A stretch of DNA of 64,000 nucleotides from Botryllus schlosseri (lineage: Eukaryota), in contig CM119372.1 of assembly GCA_051294905.1 (NCBI GenBank), positions 21,144,001 through 21,208,000 on the forward strand. Direction: 5' to 3'. The translations under genes were made by a program, and so were the position numbers. The notes below the pieces were generated by a model. The model was not told the origin of the DNA, ran no database searches, and worked only from the letters and a program-made list of their open reading frames with translations. Below are positions 2,330 through 43,514 of this stretch, one piece after another (position 1 is the stretch's first letter; every line of letters begins with the position of its first letter).

Positions 2330-2359
2330 ATAACTTCGAACTAGTATAATAACTAGATT

Positions 2360-22003: not shown

Positions 22004-24699
22004 TACAACTCTATTCGCGACCTGTCTTTACGTTTGTCAAAGAGAGTTTCAGAAATATTATCACTATGACATCTCAACATTTTAACATCTCGCCATGCAC
22101 AAACGAGTAAAATACAAAAACCTTGGTAAGTCAATCCGTTTGTAACTCACCAAACCAAAACAAAAAGTGTCCGTATGAAAAGTAGACAAGACTACGCGAG
22201 TAATCACTACAACCCACAAACATACCAACTCAGTTGTATCCATATCCCATATTTTTTATTCAACTGCAAGATGAAGTAATTACTACTTGGCGCGCGGTTT
22301 GAGATTAACACATTACATTTGAGTATACGAGATTTGAATGTCTGACCAACGTAGTTGAGAATTCTTACAATCGAACGCAGGTGTTATATTGAAAATTTTC
22401 ACGAATTGACACATTGATTTTGACATATGAGATTTTGTAATAGTCGATCATGACTTGATTATTAAATTATGACAATATTAGACCAGGTTTGTGTTGAAGG
22501 TTATTACGATACCAACAAACTTTTCAGAAACATTGTTATTGACATATCGATTTGTAAAACTAGATTAACATATCTGAAATGTTTTGATTGGGAAGATTAA
22601 GCCGTGTTCGTAAAAACCACGCAGCGTATTGTGGAAATCAGGAAATAATTTACAAATGTAATTGTCTCCAGTAACCAAGACTAAAGATGAAACAACAATT
22701 TTCTTTGTTGAACAATAACCGGTACAATACTTTATCATCGTAATCAGCAGTGAGAAATGAAACACTTTCGCACATTATCCTGTGTCAAGATATCACACTA
22801 GGTGAATTGACATATCGCCGCTTGATTAATGCTTAATCCGTTCGCACCATTTCACATACTTTGATCATTACAAAAGTAAATTGGAATATGTTTGCTAGAT
22901 GCATTCAATTCAGTTAGAAATGTCTGGTGCACAACAATCGCAATATCAAAAAAGTACTTGCTACACTGTTATTTGCTAAACGTGTTTTGCATTGTTGTTC
23001 ATTTGTAGTATTGATTGTTCTTGAACCCTCAAATAATAATTCCCGACATGAAACCAAGCCACTGAAAGTCGTTACCATCACGAAGAAACAATGTGTACGA
23101 TGTTTGTCAAATGTATCCTACCTGGCCACCAGAAAACAATTTTCACTCAGTCGAAATGAAACCAATGTGACGGTCTCCATTCGATATTTTGTTTGTGTCA
23201 AATACTTAACAATGATCACATTTGAGTGGTTGAGCTTTACATCATCAAGCTGTTATTTGTAAATCAAGATTTCGGTAAACTTGTAAATGTATCGTTTAAC
23301 TAACCAACATTTAGTGATTGTTGAACATACGACTTCGAAATACTGCGTTGATCGTAATTTCCATCATCGTGATAATCGAAGTACATTTCTTTCGAATTCG
23401 TAACAACCGGCGTTTCTACGACATGATAAATTTTTGACAAGTTATGCTTAGAAGATTGGTTGCATATCGCGAAAAATAATATACCACTCATATTGATACT
23501 GTTACTCCATTGATCGATATTTTCAAACGAGTAAAATTTATTACTTGAGTTTCTCCGCTTAATGTAAATGCAAACTCAGCCGTCTTTTAACATCACAAAG
23601 GCATTGATAAAAAGTAAGCAATCAAACACAGCACTTTGTACGACGCTAATTATTGTTCCACACATCTCATTTCATACTAAGTGTATACGAAAGATATTCA
23701 TGTTACAGGAAAATATTCGCTCATGCTACAAACCTGTACGATGATTGGCGGTGTAAGTCCAGCACAATTGTGGTATCCATACGAGTTTAGTTAACACAAT
23801 TTACGACACCGAGGTCGCCTCATCTTTCGTAAGACAACAAACCAAGGCTTCAGGATATGTCCATGTCATAACAATAAATCAGCTACTCCAACAACAGAGT
23901 ACATATGTTTTCTAGCACGGTGCTTACATCTTACACACAAATCGACCTACTTTGCTAACGAAAAGTGCTGAGTCATCACATGGTTGTCATCACAACAATA
24001 ACAACTAAAACATACTATCATACAAAATGGCCGTTATAGTTTGCACACCAACGATACATCGTACAAGTAGCAAGTCTCGAGAATCCAGTTATTCAAAAAA
24101 CGTGAAAGTGTTTCTACGCCAAGTCGGTATGTTGACGAAAGCGTATATTGTAATATCATGATCGATTTACATTCGTTGGTCACAAAATGTCACTACTCTA
24201 AATAATTATTTTTCACTCAAAGCCTACTTGTCACCATTCGTTTCATCAAGCACGAGTTCAAGAAACCTGCTACGACATGAATTGTTATTTTTATGTTGTG
24301 TAAATAGGTAATAATTAATTTTAGTAACACTATATCAACATCATCGAGTTGCGCGAATAGATTTACATGTGGTCTTGTGGTTTTAATCGAAGTATACAGC
24401 ACGGTCTAATGTAGAGTCATCTCTATTGTACAGCAACTCGGAAATCGAAATGCATGCATTAACATTTAAACAGCGATCGCGTTTCGTGACGCGAAAAATA
24501 TGTTCACCACCGCGATACTCTGCACTGGGCGTGCAAATCCTTTTCACACTCGTAATAGTATACCAACGACTACCGGCGACAACGTTTAACAATACCAACG
24601 ACACTAAACATACGATACCTACCCAAGTAAAATTTCCATTTTCACCTGGAGGTCAGCCGTTACCTGACTAAAAATACCATTGTCCTTTGGAGATTTATC

Positions 24700-25370
24700 G
24701 TTTACCCAGTGTAACAATCCCCTTTTCACTTGGAAATCTATTTTTGCCCTGGATAACAAACCCCTTTTCACTTGGAAATCTATTTTTGCCCTGGATAACA
24801 AACCTTTTTCACTTGGAAATATATTTTTTCTCTTGGTAACAAACCTTTTTCACTTGGAAATATATTTTTTCTCTGGTTAACAAACCTTTTTCACTTGGAA
24901 ATATATTTTTTCTCTGGTTAACAAACCTTTTTCACTTGGAAATATATTTTTTCTCTGGTTAACAAACCTTTTTCACTTGGAAATATATTTTTTCTCTGGT
25001 TAACAAACCTTTTTTCACTTGGAAATATATTTTTTCTCTGGTTAACAAACCTTTTTCACTTGGAAATATATTTTTTCTCTGGGCAACAAACCTTTTTCCC
25101 CGAGTAACAAACCTTTTTCCCTGAGCAACAAGCCATTTTCACTTGGTGGGTCGTCGTTTACCTGAGTAAAAATATCATTTTCCTTTGGAGATCTGGCGTT
25201 TACCCAGTGTAACAATACATTTTCTCTTGGTCATCTAGCTTTTCCTAGAGTAACTAATCATTTCTCCTGGGTAACAAACCCTTTTCGTCTGGAAAACTAT
25301 CATTTACCCGAGTACCAATACCGTTTTCACTTGGAAATCTATCTTTTCCCTGGGTAACAATATCATTTTC
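24700..25370. repeat. 41-bp minisatellite in element B arm (mirror at ~27830-28500)
   Basis: Unit AACAAACCTTTTTCACTTGGAAATATATTTTTTCTCTGGTT at 41-bp period; the array degenerates at its edges. Confidence 0.9.
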
Positions 25371-26163
25371 GTTTTGAAAACTGACAACCACACCGGACAA
25401 TTTGATATTTTTGTATATTGTTACAACGGGTAGTGACAAAATATACACCAACAACGACTCCGATACATTTGTCTAATCAAATATTCACTTGCTCTGATGC
25501 ATCCCATCAAAATCATTGGTTACTCACATACAATAACAATGTGCTGTTGTACATCGACATGTATGTTTTCGGAATTGGCGAATAAAGGGGTTTCCGATAT
25601 GTCTGTGATGTCCGGGTTCGTGCTTTGGATTTTCCAGAGTCAAAATGTCTGAATAAAACACCTCCTTGACTTTGGTAACTGGTTGATACACGGATAATGG
25701 TGTTCGGAAAACGGATGAATTTATGTTTCCCATCGCGCTAATAACTCTGGGTTACTTGTGAGTTTCCTCAGGTCTGTTTACTATATTGTGTCTTTACTGG
25801 TCAATACATGTCGCTCCAGTCAGCTGCAACCGGATCACTAATATGAGAAAGTGTGTGGGCCTGATCCGGATATTCACTCATGAACCAACGACCAATATTC
25901 AAGTAAACATGTTACAGACCGTGTTTTGTCTCCATGAAAAATACCAATGCATACACCATCACATACAAGTAACGTCACGATTGTTCACAAGTATTCGCGT
26001 AAACGAGGTGTACATACAATGTGTCGGTGTACAAACATCATGGAAAACAAATTCATGTTCTCAAGTATCATCATGCGACGACTCTGTACATTCAATGTGG
26101 GCATAGAGGACTTGGAGACATGATACAATGGACAGTGCATTATGCATACCGATATATTCTCAG

Positions 26164-26439
26164 TCAAATATGCGAACCATACACAACCATATACCCTGAT
26201 TTTCGCTGAATATCCACAACACCAACAAATCTGTACATTTCTTTTCCCTTGACCTCGACGATAGAGTTGTCATCCCAATGTACCAATCGAGTGTATGGTT
26301 CATCAGGTGTAAAATCCAAATCAAATGTCACCAAGGTATCGTTTTTCATTTTCAATATTTCCACCGCTGCATCTTGTCTGTGTCGTAAAACCACGGTGTG
26401 GGGCCAGAGGAATCTATGGACAGTTACGCGTAGTCCCAT
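26164..26439 (-). CDS. Hypothetical 91-aa protein in the spacer of element B
   Basis: ATG-to-stop ORF; 44 of 69 residues identical, without gaps, to 39335-39550 (-) in element A, with many synonymous changes. Confidence 0.65.
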   Translation of the reverse strand: MGLRVTVHRFLWPHTVVLRHRQDAAVEILKMKNDTLVTFDLDFTPDEPYTRLVHWDDNSIVEVKGKEMYRFVGVVDIQRKSGYMVVYGSHI

Positions 26440-29400
26440 ATTTACTCGTGGATATGGTCAGGTAACGACAACGTTTTCTCAATGGGCTGTGTGGGTACAA
26501 CGTTTCAATACGTAGCTGGATCAACTAGACCAAAAGTTTCCAACCGCGATTTATGTTGACCTGTCGAGTTACGAGATAGCACCCTCTTGCGGTGTGATTA
26601 ACACGAAATCCACCTTCAGCTCGCAGAGACACACCCTGGATTACATTATCTAATCGTAATCGAACTCGAGATTCACACACACACACACAGAGTCCCTGTT
26701 TACGATTTCAATCCGGAGTCACTGCTCACGATGTTTAGCTGGAGTCGTTATGTGGGAGTAGCGACATCCGACATATTCATCGCGTGAAAGATTGATAACG
26801 GTGGTAATCACCAAATACATAAAACCAGGTGAAACACTGCGGTCTCAGCGAAAAAGTTAGCAGGTTATGACCAACGATACGCAGGGGTTGAGCGAGTTAC
26901 GCAACCCGATTAAGTCGAGGTCTGGATCACGATGCAAGTCTACATGAGAATCCGAAAAATCTTGCAAAATCAAGGTGTGAACCCGTGAAAGGGTTGTACT
27001 CGTGTGAGATTCATTTTTCACAAGTTGGGTTGAGGCGGCTCATACTAAGATCGTGTTACGTCCAAATATGGCTGCTTGTCTGTCCCCAAGTCATCTATGC
27101 CCACATTGAATGTACAGAGTCGTCGCATGATGATACTTGAGAACATGAATTTGTTTTCCATGATGTTTGTACACCGACATATTGTATGTACACCTCGTTT
27201 ACGCGAATACTTGTGAACAATCGTGACGTTACTTGTATGTGATGGTGTATGCATTGGTATTTTTCATGGAGACAAAACACGGTCTGTAACATGTTTACTT
27301 GAATATTGGTCGTTGGTTCATGAGTGAATATCCGGATCAGGCCCACACACTTTCTCATATTAGTGATCCGGTTGCAGCTGACTGGAGCGACATGTATTGA
27401 CCAGTAAAGACACAATATAGTAAACAGACCTGAGGAAACTCACAAGTAACCCAGAGTTATTAGCGCGATGGGAAACATAAATTCATCCGTTTTCCGAACA
27501 CCATTATCCGTGTATCAACCAGTTACCAAAGTCAAGGAGGTGTTTTATTCAGACATTTTGACTCTGGAAAATCCAAAGCACGAACCCGGACATCACAGAC
27601 ATATCGGAAACCCCTTTATTCGCCAATTCCGAAAACATACATGTCGATGTACAACAGCACATTGTTATTGTATGTGAGTAACCAATGATTTTGATGGGAT
27701 GCATCAGAGCAAGTGAATATTTGATTAGACAAATGTATCGGAGTCGTTGTTGGTGTATATTTTGTCACTACCCGTTGTAACAATATACAAAAATATCAAA
27801 TTGTCCGGTGTGGTTGTCAGTTTTCAAAACGAAAATGATATTGTTACCCAGGGAAAAGATAGATTTCCAAGTGAAAACGGTATTGGTACTCGGGTAAATG
27901 ATAGTTTTCCAGACGAAAAGGGTTTGTTACCCAGGAGAAATGATTAGTTACTCTAGGAAAAGCTAGATGACCAAGAGAAAATGTATTGTTACACTGGGTA
28001 AACGCCAGATCTCCAAAGGAAAATGATATTTTTACTCAGGTAAACGACGACCCACCAAGTGAAAATGGCTTGTTGCTCAGGGAAAAAGGTTTGTTACTCG
28101 GGGAAAAAGGTTTGTTGCCCAGAGAAAAAATATATTTCCAAGTGAAAAAGGTTTGTTAACCAGAGAAAAAATATATTTCCAAGTGAAAAAAGGTTTGTTA
28201 ACCAGAGAAAAAATATATTTCCAAGTGAAAAAGGTTTGTTAACCAGAGAAAAAATATATTTCCAAGTGAAAAAGGTTTGTTAACCAGAGAAAAAATATAT
28301 TTCCAAGTGAAAAAGGTTTGTTAACCAGAGAAAAAATATATTTCCAAGTGAAAAAGGTTTGTTACCAAGAGAAAAAATATATTTCCAAGTGAAAAAGGTT
28401 TGTTATCCAGGGCAAAAATAGATTTCCAAGTGAAAAGGGGTTTGTTATCCAGGGCAAAAATAGATTTCCAAGTGAAAAGGGGATTGTTACACTGGGTAAA
28501 CGATAAATCTCCAAAGGACAATGGTATTTTTAGTCAGGTAACGGCTGACCTCCAGGTGAAAATGGAAATTTTACTTGGGTAGGTATCGTATGTTTAGTGT
28601 CGTTGGTATTGTTAAACGTTGTCGCCGGTAGTCGTTGGTATACTATTACGAGTGTGAAAAGGATTTGCACGCCCAGTGCAGAGTATCGCGGTGGTGAACA
28701 TATTTTTCGCGTCACGAAACGCGATCGCTGTTTAAATGTTAATGCATGCATTTCGATTTCCGAGTTGCTGTACAATAGAGATGACTCTACATTAGACCGT
28801 GCTGTATACTTCGATTAAAACCACAAGACCACATGTAAATCTATTCGCGCAACTCGATGATGTTGATATAGTGTTACTAAAATTAATTATTACCTATTTA
28901 CACAACATAAAAATAACAATTCATGTCGTAGCAGGTTTCTTGAACTCGTGCTTGATGAAACGAATGGTGACAAGTAGGCTTTGAGTGAAAAATAATTATT
29001 TAGAGTAGTGACATTTTGTGACCAACGAATGTAAATCGATCATGATATTACAATATACGCTTTCGTCAACATACCGACTTGGCGTAGAAACACTTTCACG
29101 TTTTTTGAATAACTGGATTCTCGAGACTTGCTACTTGTACGATGTATCGTTGGTGTGCAAACTATAACGGCCATTTTGTATGATAGTATGTTTTAGTTGT
29201 TATTGTTGTGATGACAACCATGTGATGACTCAGCACTTTTCGTTAGCAAAGTAGGTCGATTTGTGTGTAAGATGTAAGCACCGTGCTAGAAAACATATGT
29301 ACTCTGTTGTTGGAGTAGCTGATTTATTGTTATGACATGGACATATCCTGAAGCCTTGGTTTGTTGTCTTACGAAAGATGAGGCGACCTCGGTGTCGTAA

Positions 29401-32400
29401 ATTGTGTTAACTAAACTCGTATGGATACCACAATTGTGCTGGACTTACACCGCCAATCATCGTACAGGTTTGTAGCATGAGCGAATATTTTCCTGTAACA
29501 TGAATATCTTTCGTATACACTTAGTATGAAATGAGATGTGTGGAACAATAATTAGCGTCGTACAAAGTGCTGTGTTTGATTGCTTACTTTTTATCAATGC
29601 CTTTGTGATGTTAAAAGACGGCTGAGTTTGCATTTACATTAAGCGGAGAAACTCAAGTAATAAATTTTACTCGTTTGAAAATATCGATCAATGGAGTAAC
29701 AGTATCAATATGAGTGGTATATTATTTTTCGCGATATGCAACCAATCTTCTAAGCATAACTTGTCAAAAATTTATCATGTCGTAGAAACGCCGGTTGTTA
29801 CGAATTCGAAAGAAATGTACTTCGATTATCACGATGATGGAAATTACGATCAACGCAGTATTTCGAAGTCGTATGTTCAACAATCACTAAATGTTGGTTA
29901 GTTAAACGATACATTTACAAGTTTACCGAAATCTTGATTTACAAATAACAGCTTGATGATGTAAAGCTCAACCACTCAAATGTGATCATTGTTAAGTATT
30001 TGACACAAACAAAATATCGAATGGAGACCGTCACATTGGTTTCATTTCGACTGAGTGAAAATTGTTTTCTGGTGGCCAGGTAGGATACATTTGACAAACA
30101 TCGTACACATTGTTTCTTCGTGATGGTAACGACTTTCAGTGGCTTGGTTTCATGTCGGGAATTATTATTTGAGGGTTCAAGAACAATCAATACTACAAAT
30201 GAACAACAATGCAAAACACGTTTAGCAAATAACAGTGTAGCAAGTACTTTTTTGATATTGCGATTGTTGTGCACCAGACATTTCTAACTGAATTGAATGC
30301 ATCTAGCAAACATATTCCAATTTACTTTTGTAATGATCAAAGTATGTGAAATGGTGCGAACGGATTAAGCATTAATCAAGCGGCGATATGTCAATTCACC
30401 TAGTGTGATATCTTGACACAGGATAATGTGCGAAAGTGTTTCATTTCTCACTGCTGATTACGATGATAAAGTATTGTACCGGTTATTGTTCAACAAAGAA
30501 AATTGTTGTTTCATCTTTAGTCTTGGTTACTGGAGACAATTACATTTGTAAATTATTTCCTGATTTCCACAATACGCTGCGTGGTTTTTACGAACACGGC
30601 TTAATCTTCCCAATCAAAACATTTCAGATATGTTAATCTAGTTTTACAAATCGATATGTCAATAACAATGTTTCTGAAAAGTTTGTTGGTATCGTAATAA
30701 CCTTCAACACAAACCTGGTCTAATATTGTCATAATTTAATAATCAAGTCATGATCGACTATTACAAAATCTCATATGTCAAAATCAATGTGTCAATTCGT
30801 GAAAATTTTCAATATAACACCTGCGTTCGATTGTAAGAATTCTCAACTACGTTGGTCAGACATTCAAATCTCGTATACTCAAATGTAATGTGTTAATCTC
30901 AAACCGCGCGCCAAGTAGTAATTACTTCATCTTGCAGTTGAATAAAAAATATGGGATATGGATACAACTGAGTTGGTATGTTTGTGGGTTGTAGTGATTA
31001 CTCGCGTAGTCTTGTCTACTTTTCATACGGACACTTTTTGTTTTGGTTTGGTGAGTTACAAACGGATTGACTTACCAAGGTTTTTGTATTTTACTCGTTT
31101 GTGCATGGCGAGATGTTAAAATGTTGAGATGTCATAGTGATAATATTTCTGAAACTCTCTTTGACAAACGTAAAGACAGGTCGCGAATAGAGTTGTAATG
31201 TTTCATTACTTGTTTCAAATCAATGTGCGTATAATCTCGAAATGTGACTGGGTGAAAGTTGGTAGTCATGTTTGTCAAACATATTTCAATTCACACAATG
31301 TCAAAGTCCAAATATTTCATTCTGGATTATTTGGATTTACCTTTAGTACATCCCACGAATGGATTCCGACGCCGCGCTATAACATTTTTGATGATAAGGA
31401 CTCGAGGATTTTCATGATAGAGTTGACGAGTGATAAGATGCGTGTTTTTGTTAAGAGTTTGATTTCGTGTTGATAAAGACAATAACTGTATAATGCACAT
31501 ACTTGTGATTCTTGATTCTTGTAGAGTTATAGTTGTGAAAACAGCGGCGCTGGTGTGCGAATAATTCAATGTGGCTGAAAGTCGGTGTCAGTAATATTCG
31601 AGTTACGGTCGAATCAAAAGATCACGAAAAGATTTCTCGAAATAATTAGAATTGTACCGAATTAACACATTCAGATACGAATCAACTTGAGCTGTGTAGT
31701 AAGTTTCATTTCGAGTTGGCAAATTGATACATTGATTGAATATTCTCATAATTCTTATCGCGCAACTAAAGTCAGCCACTGTTCGAAGTGTCAAAACATA
31801 TAGCGACCACCAGAAAGTGTCAAATTGTTGGTTTATGAATCACCGTCTGCGCCGGCTCTGTGACAAACTTATTGCGGAAATATTACCTTGTGAGCGATCG
31901 GTATGTCTTTAACACCAAGTCACTAAAAATGGTTATGTTCGAGACATTATCTTGTTAGTGATCGCGGGATTTGCAATCTATTTTACACTTTTTGAAGTGT
32001 CAATTTACGAGCGCGGTTATTTGTTGCTCGCTTTTCGTGACGCTGCTGAATACTGAATACTGCCGAACGTAATAGCACCGACTGGATTAGTGGAATAATC
32101 GATACGATAGTGCGCGCTCCGAATTTCCAAAACGGACGTATTTAGTGGGTCACACAGGTCCAAAATACAACCGCCAACGTCTGGTTTTCAAAATCGCACA
32201 ATGCGCTGCGGATTAGTGAATTTCCTGTTTAGTGATGCCTATACCCGAAAGTACGACGTGCGAGAGATGTCTATACCGAAAGGGCGATTCACGGCGGCAC
32301 CCATAAGAACACATGGCGAGTCTGCGATGTGCGAGAGATGCCTATACCTGAAAGTGCGACATGCGAGCGCACCCATAAGAAACAACGGCGATCACCTATA

Positions 32401-35400
32401 GCAAAAAAGGCGAGTCACGACCGCGAGTTTTCCCGATATACACATTAACAAAGATTCATTCACGTGACTATTTACTTGATACATATTCAACACCGGTCGA
32501 GAGATGCATATACCCGAAAGTATGAATTACCACCGCGACACCGGTTGAGCGATTCATATACCGAAAAGGGTTACCGGTCGAGAGATGGCTATACTAGCAC
32601 CGGTTGAGCGATTCATATACCGAAAAGGGTTACCGGTCGCGAGATGCCTGAAAGTACGAATCATCGCCGCATCCATAAGAATAACGATATATCAATGTCG
32701 TACTCGCCGTAATTTGGAATATACACGTTACCTAAGGACCAATCACATGACTATTTACTTGATACATATTCAACACGAAGTACGACATGCTAACAACGAA
32801 GCCGCGTGCGAGCTATCCCTATACTGAAAAGGGTTACCGTTCGACCACAAGACACAATAGCCGCTCACGACCCCCGCCATAAGACATAAAAGCCGCTCAC
32901 CACCCCCGGTTTTCTAGCCGCTCACGACCCCCGCCATAAGAAATAAGAGCCGCTCACCACCCCCGCCATAAGACGCAATAGCCGCTCACCACCCCCGCCA
33001 TAAGAAATAAGAGCCGCTCACCACCCCCGGTTTTCCAGCCGCTCACCACCCCGCCCATAAGAGCCCCTGCCACCCCCAGAGCGATCGACTACACTACTGT
33101 CGCGAAACTGGATTTCACTGGTAAGATTTAATAAGTAACGAATAACAGAGCCATCGCAGACGGTGATTCGAAAACCAACAATTTGACACTTTCTGGTGGT
33201 CGCTATATGCTTTGACACTTCGGAACGTGGTTGACTTTAGTTGTATGATAAGAATATACAAGTAATGTGTCAATTTGTCAACTTGAAATGAAACTTACTA
33301 CACAAACCGAGTTGATTCGTATTTGAATGTGTTAATTCGGTACAATTCTAATTATTTTGAGAAATCTTTTTAACGTGATCTTGTGAATCGTACGTAACCT
33401 GAATATTACCGACACCGACTTTCAGCCGCATCGAATTATTCACACATTCCACGCCGCTGTTTCACACCTATAGAATCAATGCCAACTAGTTGTATGAAAA
33501 TCAAGAATCACAAGTATGCACATATAATAATTGTATTCATTATTGAGAAATCAAACCCTTAACAAAAACTCACATCTTATCACTTGTCAACTCTATCATG
33601 AAAATCCTCGAACCCGTATTATTAAGAATGTTATAAAACGGCGTCAGAAATCCACTCGCGAGATGTACTAAAGGTAAATCCAGATAATCCTAAATGAAAT
33701 ATTTGGACCTTGACAAACATGACTACCAACTTTGATCCAGTCACATTTCAAGATCATACTTTGAAACAATCCTTGAAACTTACAACTCTATTCACGACTT
33801 AGTTTTCCGTTTATCAAATAGAGTTTCAGCAAATACTATCGCGATATTTTAATGTGTTACTACACACAATAGAATCAATCAATGAAATAGCACCTGTTGT
33901 AAATATTTTTAACTTGACAACCACTTGTGCATACCGCGATCGACTTGTGACGCGATGAGTTAAATCGTAAATCGGAATATTTCAATCTATTTGTCGAAAC
34001 CTTGAACAAACTATCAGGTTATTTTTTTTTTTGTTGTAATCGAGTGAACGGAAATAGTATTACGTCTCAACATTTTAACATCTTCCCATACACAAAAGAG
34101 TAAAATACAAAAAAAGCCCTGTCAAGTCAATCCGTTTGTAACTTACCCAACCAAAGCAAAAAGTATCCTTATGAAAAGTAGACAAGACTACGCGAGTAAT
34201 CACCACAATCCAAAATCCATAGCAAGTTCGGTTGTAGTCATATACCACCAAATCGTCTTTTTATTTGTTCAACTGTAAAAGTCGTTACTATTCTGTAAGA
34301 TAAAGTAATTACTACTCGGTATATTTTATAAACCAAAGTAAATACTACTCGGTGTGTGGTTTGAGATTAACATATTACATTTGAGTATACCCGATTTGAA
34401 TGTCTGACCAACGTAGTTGAGAATTCATTTCTTACAATCAAACGCCGGTGTTACATTGAAAGGTATCATACTGTAAACATAAGGATTGACACATTGATTA
34501 TTAAATTATTCACGATAATTAGACCCGGTGTTGTGGTAAAGGTTATTAGAAAATATCACTTTTAGCATCGAGTACCAGTCGAAGTGGGTGAACAATACTT
34601 AATCCTTTCAGTGACTCGCTGTTGTACGTGCTAAATGTAAAACATTACGAGGTTAAACTCTAAGACTTTGATCAGCACAAGAGCAATTTGGACTATATTT
34701 TCTGGCTACAACCTATTCTATTAGACAAAACTCGAAGCATTAATAAAATCGAAATATGTGCTACACTGAAATCTACAAAATGTGTTCGTATTGTTACTAG
34801 TAGTGATCATGCATTATCATTTGAATCTTCTAAAGTAATTGTAATGATAAAACCAAACTACTCAAAGTCATTACCAACACAAAAAACGATTTCTATGATA
34901 TTCATCAAACGCATCATACCTCAGTATGCAGAAATTATTTGTAGAGTGCATACCAACAAAGAAATCAGGAACACAACCAACACCGAAAATGATAAATGCG
35001 TTTCGTGCTACTATTGATACAAGTTCATTTCTATCAGGTGAAATAAACGCCATCACAAAACTCGGAGCATGCAAAGGTCTTGATTGATATGAATTTCGAT
35101 TTGTGTCTTATGATACCAGCAAGCATTTTAGAAATATTATGATTCGTTAAACCAAAGTCGTATGTCCGATTATTAATTGATTGGAAACTTGATCACGTAC
35201 CTCGATCATTACAGAAGATTATAACACCATTGTCCGACAATCTTTTACAAAAGGATCGAAACCTAGTAACCCAAAGTCGTTGCCGTCGCATAAACAATTT
35301 GTACGACGTTTGATAAATGTACCCTATACTTTGGTGTACTAGAAATATTTGTAAAACACACTCTGGTAAAGAAATCGAAAAGATATCCTACACCTAAATC

Positions 35401-36728
35401 TGATAAAACCATTTTGCACTTTTTGGACGTCAGTAGTATCCATTTGAATTTTTCCATTTCCTCTCGTCAAAGTAGATGTAATCATAGTCGCTAAAGAACT
35501 TACTTGGATGTGTTTGAATTCTAGACATAGTTATGATTTACTCGACGCAAGACCCAAGAACAACCGTAGTTTACAACCGTGCACACATATCCAAAATATC
35601 GCACACTCCGCTATTCCTAAAGTACAAACACCCGATACAAAATATTACTTGTTGTGTTGTTGCGGCATCATCTTCACAATATCACCATTTTGTTTGTGTC
35701 AATTAGTTACTTTGTATGTTTCCCCACAACTCTTACAAATGTACGAAGGATATTAACATCACACTAAGTAATTAACTTTACTCGATATTCTCGCATTACG
35801 AAACTAAAGAATGATTGGTTAGACTCTACAAACTGTTTCGATATCACAAGACCTTTATTGTCTGAATGGGTGTTCATGTATCTTAATAATCAAATAGTTC
35901 AACACAGAACTAGTACTAACAGAAACATCAGAGTTGTTTACACAAAAGTTTGTATATGTGCACAGTATGCGAATACCATGTGTAAGTCCAGCACAATTGC
36001 GGTATCCATCCGAGTTTAGTTAACACAAATTTATTACAACGGAGTCACGTAAACTTTCGCGAAAGAAAAGCATACTCACTCCTAGAGGGTTATGTCAATG
36101 CCATAGCAGTTCCCCAACAACAAAGTACATATGTTTTCTAGTCACGGTCCTTACATCTTTCACATAGATCAATCTACTTTGCTAACGAAAAGTGCTGAGT
36201 CATCACATGATCGCTCTCACAACAAAACAGCTAGTAGATATTATCATTCAAAATATTCCTAACCCTTTACACACCAGTAACAAATCATACAACGAATATG
36301 TTTTGTGGGTCGAATTGTTGTTCAGTGTCAAGTCTACCTGTTGAAACGTACATTAAAACAACACAATCACAATCAAATTAAAACCACGAATCTATTTTCA
36401 TTTCCTCGCAAACTGTCACATACAGAAAAATAAATTTAAGTTCCCAAAACATACTTGTAACCAATCGCTTTCATTAAACACACAACACTATAATAGTATT
36501 TACTTTCTACAACATAGACATTCCGGTGTAGTCAAGAAATATTTTTAATAATCAAAATCATCGACTTCTGTTTACGGTGTTAGTGTGTGCATGTCATATA
36601 TGTGGGCCCGTATTAAAATGGACACGACACGACTGACTGTAAGGAGATAGAAGTCTATCGCATAAATTTACATGTGGTCTTCGCTACGGTTTCAAAAAAC
36701 GAATCATCTATTTTGCATTGATCTAGAC

Positions 36729-37749
36729 CAGGGGTGGGCAAACTTTTGAGCTCGCGGGCCGCATTCAACATCTGAATCCATTCGCGGGCCGCACTATATA
36801 AAATTGGGATTATAAACCAAAATGCAATATTGGTATTGGTGTTGGTATGTCACAACTATAGAGATGAAAGTCGGTTGTCCCGATTCTTAGAACAGGATTT
36901 AAATTTAAATCTGTTAGCAGCGATCTGTTCATAGATTTACTAATTCCACTTTTGATTCGGTTCCAGGACACACAATGCTGACAGCATCATACCCATGGTA
37001 GATTCAAACACGCTTCTACTGTTTGCAGATAAAATATAACTACCCCAATTCTACGCATAGAACGAATCCATAAGCACATCACTAAAATAGTTAAAACTGG
37101 AGAGACGAATCTGAAATCACACTCGTGATCAGAATTATGTCAATCTCGTTTAGGATTTCTGTTATTTTTAGCAGTTAAAACCTTTCAAACTCTGCGGGCC
37201 TTGAGACGGTCGCGCCAGAAATTAAACATAAAACTAATATAGGAAATAGATACCTTAGAACAGTGGATCTCAAACTTTTTAAGACACGCTCTCTTGTGAT
37301 GGTGAACGATTTCACGCCACTTATCGTCATATCGCAAAACGCAACCAGGATGCTATAGAAACCGTAACAGATAATTTGATGGCATTAAAGGGTATACGAC
37401 TGTGGATGAGAGATTTTTAGATACGAAATTCAGACTAAATACAAAGCTAAAATTAGGAATTAGGTGTGAATCGCGCGGAGCGCGAAATTTTTTTTCAGTT
37501 GAGCTGATCTTCGCCCCCCATTCAGATGCTTTCACGCCCTCAAGGGGGCACGCCCCCCAGTTTGAGAACCACTGCCTTAGAATTATGATGGTGAAATATA
37601 CCAAAAAGTTTAATTAGTCCCTGCATTAATTCGATATTTAGTACGCATTTCATCAATATTTTTAATAAGTTTATTTAGACTCTCGCGGGCCGCACAAAAC
37701 GGTGTTGCGGGCCGCATGCGGCCCGCGGGCCGTAGTTTGCCCACCCCTG
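36729..37749. mobile_element. hAT Charlie-like MITE in the spacer of element A
   Basis: TIRs CAGGGGTGGGCAAACT / AGTTTGCCCACCCCTG; TSD ATCTAGAC. Confidence 0.92.
37261..37574. mobile_element. 314-bp hAT MITE nested in the previous MITE
   Basis: TIRs CAGTGGATCTCAAACT / AGTTTGAGAACCACTG; TSD CCTTAGAA. Confidence 0.9.
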
Positions 37750-38069
37750 ATCTAGACCGAGCAAGTTAGTTAATGGCCATGATTGTGTTTGTCATATGCG
37801 AATGATAGGGTTACTGTCAAATCTACATACAACAATCTTCTGACGATCATAATAGCAATTTCATTTTCCACCCCTTCATAATTGTACAACTCGGTAACTA
37901 CGTTTAACAAGACCAATCACACTACCAGCGTTGAACACAAGATACCTACCCAAGTAAAAATATCATTCTAGTTTGGACAACTGACGTTTACCTGTGTAAA
38001 ATTAGCATTTTCACTTGGAGGTCCACTGTTACCTAACTAAAATACCATTGTCCTTTGGAGATTTATCGT

Positions 38070-38470
38070 TTACCCAGTGTAACAATCCCCTTTTCCTTTG
38101 GAAATCTATTTTTTCCCTGGGTAACAAACCTTTTTCACTTGCAAATATATTTTTTCTCTTGGTAACAAACCTTTTTCACTTGGAAATATATTTTTTCTCT
38201 GGGTAACAAACCTTTTTCTCTTGGAAATATATTTTTTCTCTGGGTAACAAACCTTTTTCACTTGGAAATATTTTTTTCCCTGAGCAACAAACCTTTTTCA
38301 CTTGGGAATATATTTTTTCCCTGAGCAACAAACCATTTTCACATGGTGGGTCGTCGTTATACTTAGTAAAAATATCATTTTCCTTTGGAGATCCGGCGTT
38401 TACCAGTGTAACAATACATTTTCTCTTGGTCATCTAGCTTTTCCTAGAGTAACAAAACCATTTTCATTTT
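38070..38470. repeat. Shorter copy of the 41-bp minisatellite in element A spacer
   Basis: Same unit and flanks as 24700-25370, with fewer units. Confidence 0.85.
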
Positions 38471-39334
38471 GAAATCTGACAAACACACCTGACAATTTGG
38501 TATTTGTTGTATTGACGATACTTTGAAATAGATTACAACGAACAGTGACGGAAATATACACGGACTACCGGTTTCAGAGTATACCCCCATCAGTCGTATC
38601 ACATCAATATCATCGGTTAACCACATACAATATGCTCTTGTCCACCGAAATGTATGTTTTGGAAAATTGGACAATATGCTTCGATAGTTCTGTGATGTCC
38701 GGGTTCGTGCTTTGGATTTTCCAGAGTCAAAATGTCTGAATAAAACACCTCCTCGACGATGGTTGGTATGTGGATAACGGGATTCAAAAAACGGTTGGAT
38801 TTATGTCACCCATCGCGATAACAATTCCAGGTCGAGTTTTCCCCCGCATGTTTACTATATTGTGTCTTTATTGGTCAATGTATGTCTCGACATTCAGTTT
38901 GAAATCGGAAACCCTGATAAAGTATGTAATCGGATCCGGATATCAACTCTGAATCGATAAACCAATGAACAATATTCAAAGTAAACATGTTACACCCCGT
39001 GTTTCCACGAAAAAATACCATCCAGGCATACGTCGCGCTTGTTTGCCCACAACAGTATACGCGTAAATGGAGGTGTGTAACATTGCATGCAATGTGTTGG
39101 TATACAAACATCGGGGAGTAAGCCTTCGATCGACAGACATTATCATAGCCGGAATTTTGATACAGATCGAATGTCATCAAGCACACCCGATAACAATGTC
39201 ATACCAATAAGCCACATTGCAATGACTCTGAGTCAATCTGAAGCATGACATACAGACGCACAAACATGGAACCGTAACATGGGTTATTCGCACGACGGCG
39301 AAAGTGAACTGTACAGCATATATCAATAGAGCGT

Positions 39335-39553
39335 TCACAGTCGAATATGCGAGCCATGCACAATCATATACCCAGATTTTCGTTGGATATGTACGAAACC
39401 AATAAATCGATACATTTCTGTTCCTTCTACGTCAATAATACAAGCGGCATTCCAATGCATCGCTCGAATGTAAGGTTCGTCTGGTGTAAAATCCATGTCA
39501 AATAACACCATAGTGTGCCTTCCGTGTTTTATTATTTCCACCGTCGCATCTCC
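39335..39553 (-). pseudogene. Homolog of ORF 26164-26439, 5'-truncated by the arm junction of element A
   Basis: DATVEIIK...FDMDFTPDEPY...EMYRFIGFVHIQRKSGYMIVHGSHI; homology stops at the arm boundary (39554). Confidence 0.65.
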
Positions 39554-42500
39554 ATCCTTTTGTAAAAGATTGTCGGACAATGGTGTTATAATCTTCTGTA
39601 ATGATCGAGGTACGTGATCAAGTTTCCAATCAATTAATAATTGGACATACGACTTTGGTTTAACGAATCATAATATTTCTAAAATGCTTGCTGGTATCAT
39701 AAGACACAAATCGAAATTCATATCAATCAAGACCTTTGCATGCTCCGAGTTTTGTGATGGCGTTTATTTCACCTGATAGAAATGAACTTGTATCAATAGT
39801 AGCACGAAACGCATTTATCATTTTCGGTGTTGGTTGTGTTCCTGATTTCTTTGTTGGTATGCACTCTACAAATAATTTCTGCATACTGAGGTATGATGCG
39901 TTTGATGAATATCATAGAAATCGTTTTTTGTGTTGGTAATGACTTTGAGTAGTTTGGTTTTATCATTACAATTACTTTAGAAGATTCAAATGATAATGCA
40001 TGATCACTACTAGTAACAATACGAACACATTTTGTAGATTTCAGTGTAGCACATATTTCGATTTTATTAATGCTTCGAGTTTTGTCTAATAGAATAGGTT
40101 GTAGCCAGAAAATATAGTCCAAATTGCTCTTGTGCTGATCAAAGTCTTAGAGTTTAACCTCGTAATGTTTTACATTTAGCACGTACAACAGCGAGTCACT
40201 GAAAGGATTAAGTATTGTTCACCCACTTCGACTGGTACTCGATGCTAAAAGTGATATTTTCTAATAACCTTTACCACAACACCGGGTCTAATTATCGTGA
40301 ATAATTTAATAATCAAGTCGTGGTCGAACATTACAAAATCTCATATATCAAATCAATGTGTCAATCCTTATGTTTACAGTATGATACCTTTCAATGTAAC
40401 ACCGGCGTTTGATTGTAAGAAATGAATTCTCAACTACGTTGGTCAGACATTCAAATCGGGTATACTCAAATGTAATATGTTAATCTCAAACCACACACCG
40501 AGTAGTATTTACTTTGGTTTATAAAATATACCGAGTAGTAATTACTTTATCTTACAGAATAGTAACGACTTTTACAGTTGAACAAATAAAAAGACGATTT
40601 GGTGGTATATGACTACAACCGAACTTGCTATGGATTTTGGATTGTGGTGATTACTCGCGTAGTCTTGTCTACTTTTCATAAGGATACTTTTTGCTTTGGT
40701 TGGGTAAGTTACAAACGGATTGACTTGACAGGGCTTTTTTTGTATTTTACTCTTTTGTGTATGGGAAGATGTTAAAATGTTGAGACGTAATACTATTTCC
40801 GTTCACTCGATTACAACAAAAAAAAAATAACCTGATAGTTTGTTCAAGGTTTCGACAAATAGATTGAAATATTCCGATTTACGATTTAACTCATCGCGTC
40901 ACAAGTCGATCGCGGTATGCACAAGTGGTTGTCAAGTTAGAAATATTTACAACAGGTGCTATTTCATTGATTGATTCTATTGTGTGTAGTAACACATTAA
41001 AATATCGCGATAGTATTTGCTGAAACTCTATTTGATAAACGGAAAACTAAGTCGTGAATAGAGTTGTAAGTTTCAAGGATTGTTTCAAAGTATGATCTTG
41101 AAATGTGACTGGATCAAAGTTGGTAGTCATGTTTGTCAAGGTCCAAATATTTCATTTAGGATTATCTAGATTTACCTTTAGTACATCTCGCGAGTGGATT
41201 TCTGACGCCGTTTTATAACATTCTTAATAATACGGGTTCGAGGATTTTCATGATAGAGTTGACAAGTGATAAGATGTGAGTTTTTGTTAAGGGTTTGATT
41301 TCTCAATAATGAATACAATTATTATATGTGCATACTTGTGATTCTTGATTTTCATACAACTAGTTGGCATTGATTCTATAGGTGTGAAACAGCGGCGTGG
41401 AATGTGTGAATAATTCGATGCGGCTGAAAGTCGGTGTCGGTAATATTCAGGTTACGTACGATTCACAAGATCACGTTAAAAAGATTTCTCAAAATAATTA
41501 GAATTGTACCGAATTAACACATTCAAATACGAATCAACTCGGTTTGTGTAGTAAGTTTCATTTCAAGTTGACAAATTGACACATTACTTGTATATTCTTA
41601 TCATACAACTAAAGTCAACCACGTTCCGAAGTGTCAAAGCATATAGCGACCACCAGAAAGTGTCAAATTGTTGGTTTTCGAATCACCGTCTGCGATGGCT
41701 CTGTTATTCGTTACTTATTAAATCTTACCAGTGAAATCCAGTTTCGCGACTTACTGATTGTTGGTAACCGAATCGCCGTCTACGCCGGCTCCGTGACAAA
41801 CTATTACTTGTGCGTGATTCCTACCTCTGTAAATCCACACCACGAGAGATGGCTATGCCTGATGTGTTATCTTGTCAGCGATTGCGGGGTTTTGCAAACT
41901 ATTTCACACATTTTTGAAGTGTTAGTTTGTGAACGCGGTTATTGTTGATATTCGAATCGCCGTCTACGCTGGCTCTGCGGTAAACTAATTACCAAAATAT
42001 TACCTTGGAAGTGATTCCTAGATTTAGCAAACTATTTCGCACTGAATGAAATAGTGTAATAATCGATAGTAGCGGCTGGACGAGAAATAATTCAGCGCAC
42101 AGGTCATTCGAAATATAGGTCGCACGCACTGCTTAATCCTCACAACAAACCACGTTTCCGTCCGCGCGGTTATTGTTGGTGACTCGTACATATTCAACAC
42201 CGCGCGAGAGATACTCGAAAGTACGAATCATCGCCGCGTCCATAAGAATAACGATATATCATTGTCGTACTCGCCGTAATTTGGAATATACACATTACCT
42301 AAGGACCAATCACATGACTATTTACTTGATACATATTCAACACGAAGTACGACATGCCAACAACGAAGCCGCGTGCGAGCTATCCCTATGCTGACAAGGG
42401 TTACCGTGCGACCACAAGACACAATAGCCGCATGCCACCGCCGCCATAAGACAAAAGAGCCGCTTGCCACCCCGGGTTTCCCAGCCGCTTGCGACCGCCG

Positions 42501-43514
42501 CCATAAGACATAAGAGCCGCTTGCCACCGCACCCATAAGACGCAATAGCCGCATGCCACCGCGCCCATAAGAAATAAGAGCCGCATGCCACCCCCGGTTT
42601 TCCAGCCGCATGCGACCGCGCCCATAAGCGCCCATTACGAATCGCGACCGATCTATATAACTACTATTGTGTAGCTTTATTTCCGGAAATTAAAGGCATT
42701 ACTACACTTGCTTTTATATTTCAACATGATGTATGTTATCCACACAAAAGAACTGATATCAAATAGAACTCAAAGTATATGATACTTGGAATAGAAAGTG
42801 AAATATATAAATACTACTTCTAAAAGCGGAAAATGTGTTTCATGTCTTTAGTCCAGAAAGTTTCAAAGGTGGTATGCTAAAACAGCTCTAAACCTAAAAA
42901 AAGTCAGAGTCCACTTTTCCAGATTAGGACTGCTAGATAACGATATGATAATTAAATGCTAGATTGCGAAACATCAGTCTCAAACATTATGATGAGCCAT
43001 ATATGCTGTGATGAAATATTTCATGGGCGACGGGCGACAATGCGGTGTGAACAAAACCACGTCAACCCGCTACCTAAACTATATTCACCGATACTTTCGT
43101 GAAATCATACTGGTTACTCCGTATCCACTGAGCGCGAAGCGCGACGAAAATTCCGGGCGTTATTGAACTTTTATGAATATTAAATGTTGATACTCCTTGA
43201 AAACAGCCCCGAAATTCCTCAGGCTATCTTCCTGATTGGAGGATCAAACTACTTCTTCTTGACAAACTGAAAATGGCGAAAAGTAAGTAAGTAGATCAAA
43301 TTTTTTTTTGTTTGTAATACTTTTTCGGCATGAATTTATGGAAATGAAAAATGCACTACGAATAAATATAATCGCGACTTCGGTCGCTACTTCTACAAAG
43401 TAGAAGTGGCGAAAACCGGATCTACTTGAGTAAGTACCCCAAGAGATGAAAACTACTTGAGTACTTCGAAAAAGTAGAAGTACTTCGTTACTGACCACCT
43501 CTCCATATGGCGCC

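What the first reader, a model, noticed from the sequence alone, without database searches (positions are those of the whole stretch)
35257..39553. Copy-back architecture: sequence that is unique spacer in A is duplicated arm in B
Seen: both elements read as one end of the same ancestral genome running inward, then an abrupt switch to an inverted copy of that same end. A's single-copy spacer (~35980-39160) is homologous to the inner part of B's duplicated arm (~23750-26050). A's switch point (39554) cuts off the 5' end of an ORF that is whole in B. Known: protein-primed linear replicons such as adenovirus form terminal panhandles, and RNA viruses generate copy-back defective-interfering genomes. 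Inference: these could be integrated copy-back defective genomes of a Polinton virus, made by polymerase template switching. They would keep two origins and integrase sites while losing all core genes, making a satellite-like parasite of Polintons.
Basis: inference. Interest (0 to 1): 0.82.

Follow-up and report, generated by a model that had tools for sequence, protein, structure and literature searches.

The report
Nested palindromic Polinton satellite elements
Two hairpin-shaped mobile elements with the end sequences of virus-like Polinton transposons lie one inside the other here. The outer one's odd single-copy middle is what a 3.4-kb loss left of a fully mirror-image parent. The mirror-image family itself likely began as a fold-back copy of the left half of a Polinton genome.

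Summary
Element A (window 19182-42665) has 3.1-kb arms (99.7-100% identical) around a 4,297-bp spacer (35257-39553). That spacer is homologous to the inner arm and loop of element B (20103-33098; 6,018-nt arms, 960-bp loop). B is inserted in A's left arm.

Both have 6-bp target duplications and AGTAGT..ACTACT ends. About 0.9 kb of each end matches 15-17 kb elements in the same genome that carry integrase, packaging ATPase and a polymerase-like gene.

- **Against two independent copy-back events:** B's arm/loop junctions recur in 38 of 40 scored genome places. A's switch junction occurs once in 495 Mb. The sequence across A's other break is continuous in 40 of 40 relatives. So A is a one-off derivative, lacking about 3.4 kb, of a B-like palindrome.
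- **For a one-end origin of the family:** helper inverted repeats are only 0.27-0.87 kb. Both arms carry a remnant of the helper's leftmost gene. The loop gene resembles the middle of the helper's ATPase, and no right-half remnants were found.
- **New here:** the two arms of a copy are 99.8-100% alike in 10 of 10 copies. Recombination breakpoints between subfamilies are exact mirror images.

This scan has reported the family before, in this genome and in others.

The parts
19176..19181 (.). Left copy of A's 6-bp target-site duplication, ATTGTG
19182..20102 (+). A, outer part of the left arm. It starts AGTAGT and holds the helper-like inverted-repeat sequence and 32-bp subterminal repeats.
20097..20102 (.). 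Left copy of B's 6-bp target-site duplication, GTCGCG (part of A's arm)
20103..26120 (+). B left arm, 6,018 nt
21734..21825 (-). Remnant of the 3' end of the helper's leftmost gene (188-aa ORF, aa 147-187) in B's left arm. It is mirrored in the right arm near 31376-31467.
24680..25400 (.). Tandem array of 41-42-bp units in B's inner arm. It is mirrored at 27800-28520, and A's spacer holds the same array at 38006-38440.
26121..27080 (+). B loop (unique centre), 960 nt
26164..26439 (-). Loop ORF of 91 codons. It is conserved in length across subfamilies, and the B-type copy resembles aa 71-148 of the helper's packaging ATPase.
27081..33098 (-). B right arm, ending ACTACT
33099..35256 (+). A, inner part of the left arm. 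Its first 6 nt are the second copy of B's target duplication. A 34-nt deletion relative to the right arm lies at about 34499.
35257..39553 (+). A's single-copy spacer. This is the former inner left arm plus about 296 nt of the former loop of a palindromic parent.
36730..37748 (.). Unrelated 1,019-bp small transposon inserted in A's spacer. Its 10-bp duplication GATCTAGACC lies at 36720-36729 and 37749-37758.
39344..39553 (-). 5'-truncated copy of the loop ORF in A, cut by the junction
39554..42665 (-). A right arm, uninterrupted. It holds the single GTCGCG target site near 41745-41750 and ends ACTACT.
42666..42671 (.). Right copy of A's target-site duplication, ATTGTG

Best explanation
A and B are two nested copies of a many-copy family of palindromic elements that carry Polinton ends but no polymerase, integrase or capsid genes of their own, and that are presumably inserted, and likely replicated, by the genome's own lineage-1 Polintons.

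**Shown**
- B (12,996 bp) is the family's standard form: two 6-kb arms around a roughly 1-kb loop that holds one small gene.
- A (10,488 bp without B) is a one-off derivative of such a palindrome. About 3.4 kb is missing: most of the loop, the start of the loop gene, and about 2.8 kb of the inner right arm. The former inner left arm is thus left as a single-copy 'spacer'.
- After that, A received B, a small transposon and a 34-nt deletion.

**Inferred**
1. The family began when a strand-displacing, protein-primed polymerase copied the left 7 kb or so of a Polinton genome inward to a point in or just beyond the ATPase gene. It then switched template and copied back out. The product has two left ends, and so two origins, two integrase sites and perhaps two packaging signals.
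2. In each replication round one arm is again templated on the other, by snap-back of the nascent or displaced strand. This keeps the arms identical and makes every recombination breakpoint mirror-symmetric.
3. A's loss arose either by a mis-landed template switch of this kind or by breakage and repair at the hairpin-prone centre in the chromosome. The sequence cannot tell these two apart.
For: **Polinton identity**
- 6-bp duplications for A and B. They are perfect in 6 of 7 other satellite copies with mapped ends and 5/6 in the seventh; the ends of an eighth copy were not mapped.
- (AGT)2..(ACT)2 ends, as reported for vertebrate Mavericks (PMC8097293 passages).
- The terminal 0.9 kb or so is 70-90% identical to the inverted repeats of three 15.3-17.4 kb elements. 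One of these, read in full, carries an rve+chromo integrase, an A32-like ATPase and a 1,129-aa ORF whose features match PF03175 polymerase clusters (score 0.96, 21 of 30 hits).

**B is inherited as a unit**
- Both arm/loop junctions are present in 38 of 40 scored places at 93-100% identity.

**A is derived**
- Its junction is spanned in 1 of 40 scored places.
- The 30-mer across the junction occurs once in the genome at up to 1 mismatch.
- A's left break is continuous in 40 of 40 places, with 16 inverted pairs.
- Relatives on C3 and C15 are full palindromes of 13.1-13.4 kb that hold A's spacer in both arms.
- The breakpoint maps with 0-3 nt of microhomology.

**One-end origin**
- Helper inverted repeats are only 0.27-0.87 kb.
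- A remnant of the leftmost helper gene lies on the inward-facing strand in 6 of 6 copies.
- The B-type loop ORF against helper ATPase aa 71-148 gives BLASTP E=2e-5 and a Smith-Waterman score of 65, against 26±4 for shuffles (0 of 300 reach it).
- The distances from the end are similar: 6.1-6.3 kb in B and 7.0-7.2 kb in the helper.
- No remnant of the polymerase or right-hand genes was found at E<=1, apart from 11 residues in a repeat-like zone and three other short stretches of p211.

**Arm regeneration**
- Left and right arms of one copy are 99.8-100% identical in 10 of 10 copies, while copies differ by 1-21%. Whole arms are 98.8-99.95% identical.
- Outer-arm and inner-arm/loop modules give conflicting groupings. 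The identity breaks lie at exact mirror positions (coordinate sums of 53201).

**Precedent**
- Over 85% of phi29-polymerase amplification chimeras are inverted sequences with an intervening deletion (PMC1855051 abstract).
Against: - About 4.4 kb of each arm (B 21900-26100; A 33700-39300) matches none of seven autonomous copies from three lineages, at DNA or protein level. Most of the proposed colinearity with the helper is therefore unseen.
- The ATPase link rests on the B-type ORF alone. A-type loop ORFs are not significant (E=0.76; 89-261 of 300 shuffles reach their score). Profile-profile comparison gave 2% probability.
- A third loop type (C11/C4) has no such ORF.
- A 118-bp piece of B (20966-21083) matches a site 2.2 kb inside the helper's right end. 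That site sits beside an internal repeat-like segment.
- Arm identity and mirrored mosaics could also come from arm-to-arm gene conversion in the chromosome.
- Helper dependence is inferred from shared ends only.
- No read evidence for A's junction or for free linear or hairpin forms was obtained.
Confidence: 0.6

Rival explanations
1. A and B are two independent copy-back defective genomes, each made directly from an autonomous Polinton genome by a polymerase switch at a different turn-around point.
For: - A's spacer is colinear with B's inner arm and loop.
- The junction has little or no homology.
- Strand-displacing polymerases make such inverted products (PMC1855051 abstract).
Against: - No autonomous copy holds the inner-arm sequence.
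- A's nearest relatives (98-99% identical) are full palindromes with A's spacer in both arms.
- B's junctions are shared by 38 of 40 scored places.
- A's junction is unique in the genome.
- A-type and B-type palindromes share the same centre and the same loop gene, so the palindrome predates their split.
- The C8 derivative keeps a short inverted repeat around an intact loop, and so needs a palindromic parent.
Confidence: 0.06
2. Chromosomal processes only. The palindromes are ordinary long-inverted-repeat transposons. Their arms are kept alike by arm-to-arm gene conversion in the chromosome, mosaics arise by ectopic conversion followed by arm-to-arm conversion, and A, C8 and C12 are products of hairpin or cruciform breakage and end-joining. 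On this reading no copy-back replication is involved after the family's origin.
For: - Closely spaced long inverted repeats form hairpins and are unstable (abstract openings as shown in the search listing for PMC4057610, PMC7999016 and PMC3855049).
- All 3 asymmetric derivatives have one breakpoint within about 0.3 kb of the arm/loop boundary.
- A's junction is unique to this locus.
- One copy (C4) has arms at 98.8-99.0% identity, so arms can drift apart.
- Arm-to-arm conversion in large sex-chromosome palindromes is known (recalled, not checked here).
Against: - Mirror-exact breakpoints appear in every comparison made.
- Arm identity is 99.8-100% in 10 of 10 copies, although subfamilies differ by up to 21% in the same segment. 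Chromosomal conversion would have to be very efficient at hundreds of dispersed loci.
- This reading does not explain why the family maps only to the helper's left half.
Confidence: 0.25
3. Internal-deletion derivatives of an autonomous Polinton that itself has multi-kb inverted repeats (the finding's own refuting case).
For: - Inverted-repeat length varies among helper copies (655-873 bp). The boundary falls at different points of the segment shared with the satellites.
Against: - Seven autonomous copies of three lineages were examined. Six have inverted repeats of 0.27-0.87 kb and none was detected in the seventh. Published intact vertebrate Mavericks have 46-1,447 bp (PMC8097293 passage).
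- The satellites hold no right-end-specific gene remnant.
Confidence: 0.05
4. Assembly artefact, such as fold-back chimeric reads or a collapsed palindrome, or an unrelated Foldback-type transposon.
For: - Near-perfect palindromes are a known artefact class.
- The arms hold internal tandem repeats as Foldback elements do.
Against: - Each copy is flanked by its own 6-bp duplication.
- B sits in A with a duplication of a site that is single-copy in A's other arm.
- The same architecture appears at dozens of loci.
- The ends are homologous to Polinton inverted repeats.
- A junction without homology is not what an assembler collapse produces.
Confidence: 0.03

Closest known systems
Autonomous Polintons/Mavericks (polintoviruses)
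   Same: - 6-bp target duplication and (AGT)2..(ACT)2 end motif.
- The terminal 0.9 kb or so is homologous to the inverted repeats of elements in the same genome that carry integrase, ATPase and a polymerase-like gene.
- Overall size of 11-15 kb, close to the helpers' 15-17 kb.
   Different: - No polymerase, integrase or capsid genes.
- Arms of 3-6.5 kb, against inverted repeats of 0.27-0.87 kb here and 46-1,447 bp in print (PMC8097293).
- Almost the whole element is an inverted duplication of one end.
Defective adenovirus genomes made of an inverted duplication of the left end, and panhandle repair of adenovirus terminal repeats (Daniell 1976 seen only as a reference-list entry in PMC12090768; content recalled)
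   Same: - Protein-primed linear replicon.
- The product carries two copies of the same end.
- In adenovirus the packaging signal is at the left end, and incomplete particles are enriched for the left end (PMC12090768 passages).
   Different: - The adenovirus forms are transient products in infected cells.
- Here the form is integrated, heritable, amplified to many copies, and diversified into subfamilies.
Inverted chimeras made by phi29 DNA polymerase in multiple displacement amplification (PMC1855051, abstract)
   Same: - Inverted sequence with an intervening deletion, made by a strand-displacing family-B polymerase.
- Short or no complementarity at junctions. A's junction has 0-3 nt.
   Different: - This is an in-vitro artefact of a phage enzyme.
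- Nothing here shows that the Polinton polymerase behaves alike.
Foldback-type transposons with long, internally repetitive inverted repeats (Drosophila FB; Galileo, PMC3573991 listing only)
   Same: - Very long inverted arms with internal tandem repeats and a short or absent unique centre.
- Structural variants are frequent.
   Different: - Those elements are moved by cut-and-paste transposases (Galileo belongs to the P superfamily) and have other duplication lengths (recalled).
- Here the ends and the 6-bp duplication are those of Polintons.
Hairpin derivatives of yeast linear killer plasmids and large sex-chromosome palindromes kept alike by arm-to-arm conversion (both recalled, not checked)
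   Same: - Inverted duplication of one end of a protein-primed replicon.
- Near-identical arms maintained over time.
   Different: - Neither is a dispersed, integrase-inserted repeat family.

Membership tests
Polinton/Maverick (as a non-autonomous derivative) | 6-bp target-site duplication | tested here: met
   A has ATTGTG and B has GTCGCG. The duplication is perfect in 6 of 7 other satellite copies with mapped ends and 5/6 in the seventh. It is perfect in 2 of 3 lineage-1 helpers.
Polinton/Maverick (as a non-autonomous derivative) | Terminal motif 5'-(AGT)2 .. (ACT)2-3' or (AG)3..(CT)3 | tested here: met
   Both A and B have AGTAGT..ACTACT. The motif is as quoted in PMC8097293.
Polinton/Maverick (as a non-autonomous derivative) | Ends homologous to those of an element encoding a protein-primed polymerase and an rve integrase | tested here: met
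   Identity is 70-90% over about 0.9 kb to three 15-17 kb elements. One of them, read in full, has an rve+chromo integrase and an A32-like ATPase and a polymerase-like ORF by feature match. The direct PF03175 score is below the cut-off (E=0.18).
Polinton/Maverick (autonomous member) | Own polymerase, integrase and capsid genes | tested here: not met
   No ORF of 150 aa or more lies in A or B. There is no significant Pfam hit in 35 ORFs. There is no protein-level match to helper genes beyond two remnants.
Copy-back / snap-back defective genome of a protein-primed replicon | Both arms derive from the same end of a parent that lacks long inverted repeats | tested here: inconclusive
   This is met for what can be mapped: the remnant of the leftmost gene in both arms, an ATPase-like loop gene, no right-half remnants, and helper repeats of at most 0.87 kb. 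About 4.4 kb per arm cannot be mapped.
Copy-back / snap-back defective genome of a protein-primed replicon | Copies arise repeatedly from the autonomous genome, with different turn-around points | tested here: not met
   B's junctions are shared by 38 of 40 places. A's junction is unique and derives from a palindromic parent.
Copy-back / snap-back defective genome of a protein-primed replicon | Free linear or hairpin replicative forms exist | not testable with these tools
   Only short assembled pieces of public runs could be laid.
Foldback-type transposons | Long inverted arms built largely of tandem subrepeats, moved by a cut-and-paste transposase | tested here: not met
   Tandem repeats (32-bp subterminal, 41-42-bp internal) cover only a minor part of the arms. 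The ends and the duplication are of Polinton type.

The most novel reading that the evidence does not exclude
Palindromic Polinton satellites are rebuilt in every replication round by intra-strand copy-back. The helper's protein-primed polymerase copies one arm and the loop, then the nascent strand snaps back and templates its own second arm. Near-perfect arm identity, exactly mirrored recombination breakpoints and centre-anchored deletion derivatives such as A would be the genomic footprints of this. If so, these elements are a natural record of how Polintons replicate, which has never been observed directly, and a DNA counterpart of copy-back defective-interfering genomes that has become a heritable, evolving satellite lineage with its own ATPase-derived gene.
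Probability: 0.3. Interest if true: 0.85.

Novelty: new variant of a known kind. Interest (0 to 1): 0.6.

Why it matters
How Polintons/Mavericks replicate is known only from models.

A large family whose members are inverted duplications of one Polinton end, whose arms evolve in strict concert, and whose mosaics are mirror-symmetric, gives a sequence-level test of those models. It bears on strand displacement, panhandle or snap-back intermediates, and template switching.

It also shows that a DNA virus-like element can spawn a long-lived satellite lineage that keeps ends, size and one small gene while shedding all core genes.

For annotation, it warns that the 'different turn-around points' seen between copies can be secondary deletions of a palindrome, not independent origins.

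My three full-text searches for palindromic, fold-back or hairpin Polinton derivatives returned no title or abstract describing such elements. Only listings were read, and Repbase-type catalogues were not searchable. Earlier reports of this scan describe the same family in this genome and similar ones in other genomes. The family is therefore not new to the scan.

Tried and rejected
- **PF03175 search of the genome at the default threshold:** no match. At E<=10 there were nine weak places, which led to the helpers.
- **Polymerase-like ORF against solved structures and PHROGs:** nothing useful.
- **A/B against regions around two other weak PF03175 places (C5, C11):** only the unrelated small transposon matched.
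- **A/B against lineage-2 and lineage-3 Polintons:** no match, ends included.
- **Pfam on 35 ORFs of A/B:** no hit better than E=0.011, and all are below the cut-offs.
- **Loop ORF:**
  - No Atlas hit.
  - The structure model was unusable (mean pLDDT 41), so no fold search was run.
  - The profile-profile comparison with ATPases was weak (probability 2%).
- **Possible remnant of helper ORF p225:** a 13-18-residue match (E 0.9-3.2) lies at a colinear position in four A-type copies. It is too weak to use.
- **Public runs:**
  - Only short assembled pieces were available.
  - In three runs of other samples, pieces run off at 39551; in two of them pieces also run off at 39554. They continue into the sequence seen in undeleted relatives. 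This fits the many parental-type copies but says nothing about A's junction in those samples.
  - No bridging piece was listed for the run that may be the source.
- **Papers not held:** Kapitonov and Jurka 2006, Krupovic and Koonin 2015, Daniell 1976.
- **Not seen:** supplementary figure S1 of PMC8097293 (inverted-repeat sizes).

Full report
**Architecture**

A self-comparison of window 15000-45000 gives two sets of near-perfect inverted arms.
- B runs from 20103 to 33098 (12,996 bp). Its arms, 20103-26120 and 27081-33098, are 99.95% identical over 6,018 nt, around a 960-nt loop.
- A runs from 19182 to 42665. Its right arm (39554-42665) is continuous. Its left arm is split into 19182-20102 and 33099-35256, because B is inserted in it.
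- The flanks show 6-bp target duplications: ATTGTG for A and GTCGCG for B. B's site is present once in A's intact right arm.
- Both elements begin AGTAGT and end ACTACT.
- A without B is 10,488 bp. Its arm blocks are 100%, 99.79% and 99.74-99.87% identical. The left arm lacks 34 nt that the right arm keeps at 40317-40350.

**The observation**

A's spacer (35257-39553) is colinear with B's inner arm and the start of B's loop.
- Three DNA blocks match at 76-90% identity.
- A 91-codon ORF lies on the minus strand of B's loop (26164-26439). Its homologue in A (39344-39568, 60% amino-acid identity) loses its first 21 codons or so at the switch point.

One part of the spacer, 36730-37748, is an unrelated 1,019-bp small transposon with a 10-bp duplication. 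A relative shows the empty site.

**What the elements are**

The window's genome (495 Mb, 219 contigs) holds this family in large numbers. First-look candidates numbered 8,808 for A's spacer and 1,168 for B's centre; only 40 are scored per search.

The Pfam model for protein-primed polymerases gave only sub-threshold places. These lay in open frames of 1,000-1,450 codons. Around three of them are elements of 15,302, 15,844 and 17,381 bp, with inverted repeats of 757, about 873 and about 660 bp. Two of the three have perfect 6-bp duplications, and all three have AGTAGT ends.

One copy, read in full, has the following.
- An rve integrase with a chromodomain, and an A32-like ATPase.
- A 1,129-codon ORF whose language-model features match clusters of eukaryotic PF03175 proteins (score 0.96, 21 of 30 hits). 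Direct sequence support for the polymerase call is weak (E=0.18; nothing).

An integrase search found at least 113 places in three lineages, at 91-100%, 65-67% and 52-53% identity. A and B match only lineage 1, over their terminal 0.9 kb or so at 70-90% identity. They do not match lineage-2 or lineage-3 elements, whose inverted repeats are 0.27-0.33 kb.

The end motif and the 6-bp duplication are the ones reported for vertebrate Mavericks, whose intact members have inverted repeats of 46-1,447 bp (PMC8097293 passages).

A and B have no ORF of 150 codons or more, no significant Pfam hit in 35 ORFs, and no translated match to helper genes beyond the two remnants described below. They are Polinton-ended elements with none of the core genes.

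**Is A an independent copy-back product?**

No.
- **B is an inherited form.** B's centre with both arm/loop junctions (window 25900-27300) is present in full in 38 of 40 scored places at 93-100% identity. The other two are partial. B's architecture is therefore a transposing form.
- **A's junction is unique.** A 300-nt probe across 39553/39554 is spanned only by the window itself. The other 39 of 40 scored places match only the arm half. The 30-mer across the junction occurs once in the genome at up to one mismatch.
- **A's other break is not a family feature.** A probe across it (35107-35406) is continuous in 40 of 40 scored places at 98-100% identity. These include 16 inverted pairs: 14 are 5.5-8.4 kb apart, and two are wider, about 10 and 21 kb.
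- **A's relatives are full palindromes.** Two relatives fetched in full (C3, 13,121 bp; C15, 13,421 bp) have arms of 6.1-6.3 kb at 99.87-99.89% identity. They hold A's 'spacer' sequence in both arms and have a loop of about 0.85 kb with the ORF.
- **The missing part can be mapped.** Against the C3 copy, A lacks about 3.4 kb: about 570 bp of loop and about 2.84 kb of the inner right arm. The junction has 0-3 nt of possible microhomology, made ambiguous by one mismatch.
- **Other asymmetric copies exist.** Two were found. C12 lacks the loop and 1.27 kb of the inner right arm. C8 lacks about 3 kb of the inner left arm but keeps the loop and a short inverted repeat around it, which only a palindromic parent can give.

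In all three derivatives one breakpoint lies within about 0.3 kb of the arm/loop boundary.

**Does the family map to one end of the helper?**

As far as it can be mapped, yes.
- **Leftmost gene.** Beyond the inverted repeat, both arms of A and B carry about 70-200 bp homologous to the sequence just inside the helper's left repeat. This segment is present at one end only in 3 of 3 helpers. It is the 3' end of the helper's leftmost gene. Two colinear peptide matches, covering aa 143-187 of 188, lie on the inward-facing strand in 5 of 6 copies from different subfamilies. The sixth copy, A, shows one of them.
- **ATPase.**
  - The B-type loop ORF aligns with aa 71-148 of the helper's ATPase, the Walker-B region. 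There is no Walker A.
  - BLASTP gives E=2e-5, and the local-alignment score is 65 against 26±4 for 300 shuffles, none of which reach it. Scores against the ATPases of lineages 3 and 2 are weaker but above most shuffles.
  - It lies 6.1-6.3 kb from B's end, on the same strand as the ATPase, which lies 7.0-7.2 kb from the helper's left end.
- **Right half.** No remnant of the polymerase or of the three right-hand ORFs was found at E<=1. The exceptions are 11 residues in a repeat-like zone and three other short stretches of the ORF p211.

Caveats:
- A-type loop ORFs alone are not significant, and profile-profile comparison was weak.
- A third loop type has no such ORF.
- About 4.4 kb of each arm matches nothing.
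- A 118-bp piece of B matches a site 2.2 kb inside the helper's right end, beside an internal copy of part of the repeat.

**Concerted arms and mirrored mosaics**

For a 570-nt arm segment present in all ten copies examined (A, B and eight others), the left and right arms of the same copy are 99.8-100% identical in 10 of 10. Copies are 79-99% identical to each other. Whole arms are 98.8-99.95% identical.

Groupings conflict along the element.
- In the outer arm, B is closest to C12 and C3 (94-96%) and far from C1 and C10 (83-85%).
- In the inner arm and loop, B is 95-99% identical to C1 and C10. B matches only 243 nt of C3's loop, at 79%.
- C15 is closest to C11 in the outer arm (99.3%) and to C3 in the loop.

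The points where identity changes lie at exact mirror positions in the two arms: coordinate sums are 53201 in every block compared.

A-type and B-type palindromes share the same centre and loop gene. The palindrome therefore predates their divergence, and its arms have evolved in concert through it.

**Mechanism**

Shown:
- insertion with Polinton-type ends and duplications;
- inheritance of the palindromic form;
- A's derivation by loss of about 3.4 kb;
- concerted arms and mirrored mosaics.

Inferred:
1. The family arose by an inverted duplication of the left 7 kb or so of a Polinton genome, with the turn in or just beyond the ATPase gene.
2. One arm is re-templated on the other in each replication round, by snap-back of a nascent or displaced strand. 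This would fix any recombinant arm on both sides.
3. A's loss is either a mis-landed switch of this kind or breakage and joining at a hairpin-prone centre in the chromosome.

Precedents:
- phi29 polymerase chimeras are mostly inverted sequences with an intervening deletion (PMC1855051 abstract).
- The adenovirus packaging signal, and the DNA of incomplete particles, lie at the left end (PMC12090768 passages).
- Adenovirus left-end inverted-duplication genomes and panhandle repair are recalled only.

The main rival for points 2 and 3 is arm-to-arm gene conversion and palindrome fragility in the chromosome (abstract openings as shown in the search listing for PMC4057610, PMC7999016 and PMC3855049). 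The sequence alone does not exclude it.

**The loop gene**

The loop gene is 91 codons without any length change between B-type and A-type copies. Synonymous divergence is 0.8-0.96, and dN/dS is 0.29-0.35 in comparisons of full-length copies. One copy (C15) has a stop at codon 2, and A's copy is truncated. The gene has no Pfam or Atlas match, and the structure model was unusable.

**Novelty and standing**

Three full-text searches returned no title or abstract on palindromic, hairpin or fold-back Polinton derivatives (listings only). Earlier notes of this scan describe this family repeatedly in this genome, and similar families in other genomes.
- I used those notes as leads to look for helpers.
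- I confirmed for myself the helper link, the conserved loop gene and the near-identity of the arms.
- Their claims about copy number near a thousand, and absence from another individual, were not tested here.

Noticed in passing
window 2357-7837 (+): A retrovirus-like or LTR-type element. Its open frames hold a zinc knuckle, reverse transcriptase, RNase H and an integrase core.
   Followed up: partly
window 62833-63438 (+): A fragment with an endonuclease domain of the endonuclease-reverse-transcriptase type, typical of non-LTR retrotransposons.
   Followed up: no
window 36730-37748: A 1,019-bp small transposon with AGGGGTGGGCAAAC inverted ends and a 10-bp target duplication, GATCTAGACC. Related copies lie elsewhere in the genome, including inside a lineage-3 Polinton region (L071).
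   Followed up: partly
window 24680-25400, 27800-28520, 38006-38440; 32845-33062 and 42412-42629: 41-42-bp tandem arrays in the inner arms and 32-bp subterminal repeats near the ends. Array length differs between copies. Their role (protein binding, packaging) is unknown.
   Followed up: no
G000, genome-wide: At least 113 Polinton-type integrase places in three lineages (91-100%, 65-67% and 52-53% amino-acid identity). Most are open frames without stops. The satellites' ends match only the most abundant lineage.
   Followed up: partly
L028/L042, helper element positions 12918-13135 of 15302: The helper carries an internal third copy of part of its inverted repeat, next to the start of a 276-codon ORF about 2.2 kb from its right end. 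The adjoining 118 bp matches B 20966-21083.
   Followed up: partly
window 33145-34499 versus 34494-36729: A itself is a mosaic. Its outer arm is only 86-89% identical to the relatives that are 94-98% identical in the adjoining inner segment. The change falls at the site of the 34-nt indel between A's arms.
   Followed up: partly
L023, G000:C5:11740528-11745806: A large inverted structure built of roughly 176-bp tandem units near a weak polymerase-family match. It is unrelated to A or B.
   Followed up: no
window 26098-26120 and 27081-27103: Two of the three mismatches between B's 6-kb arms lie in the last 22 nt next to the loop.
   Followed up: no
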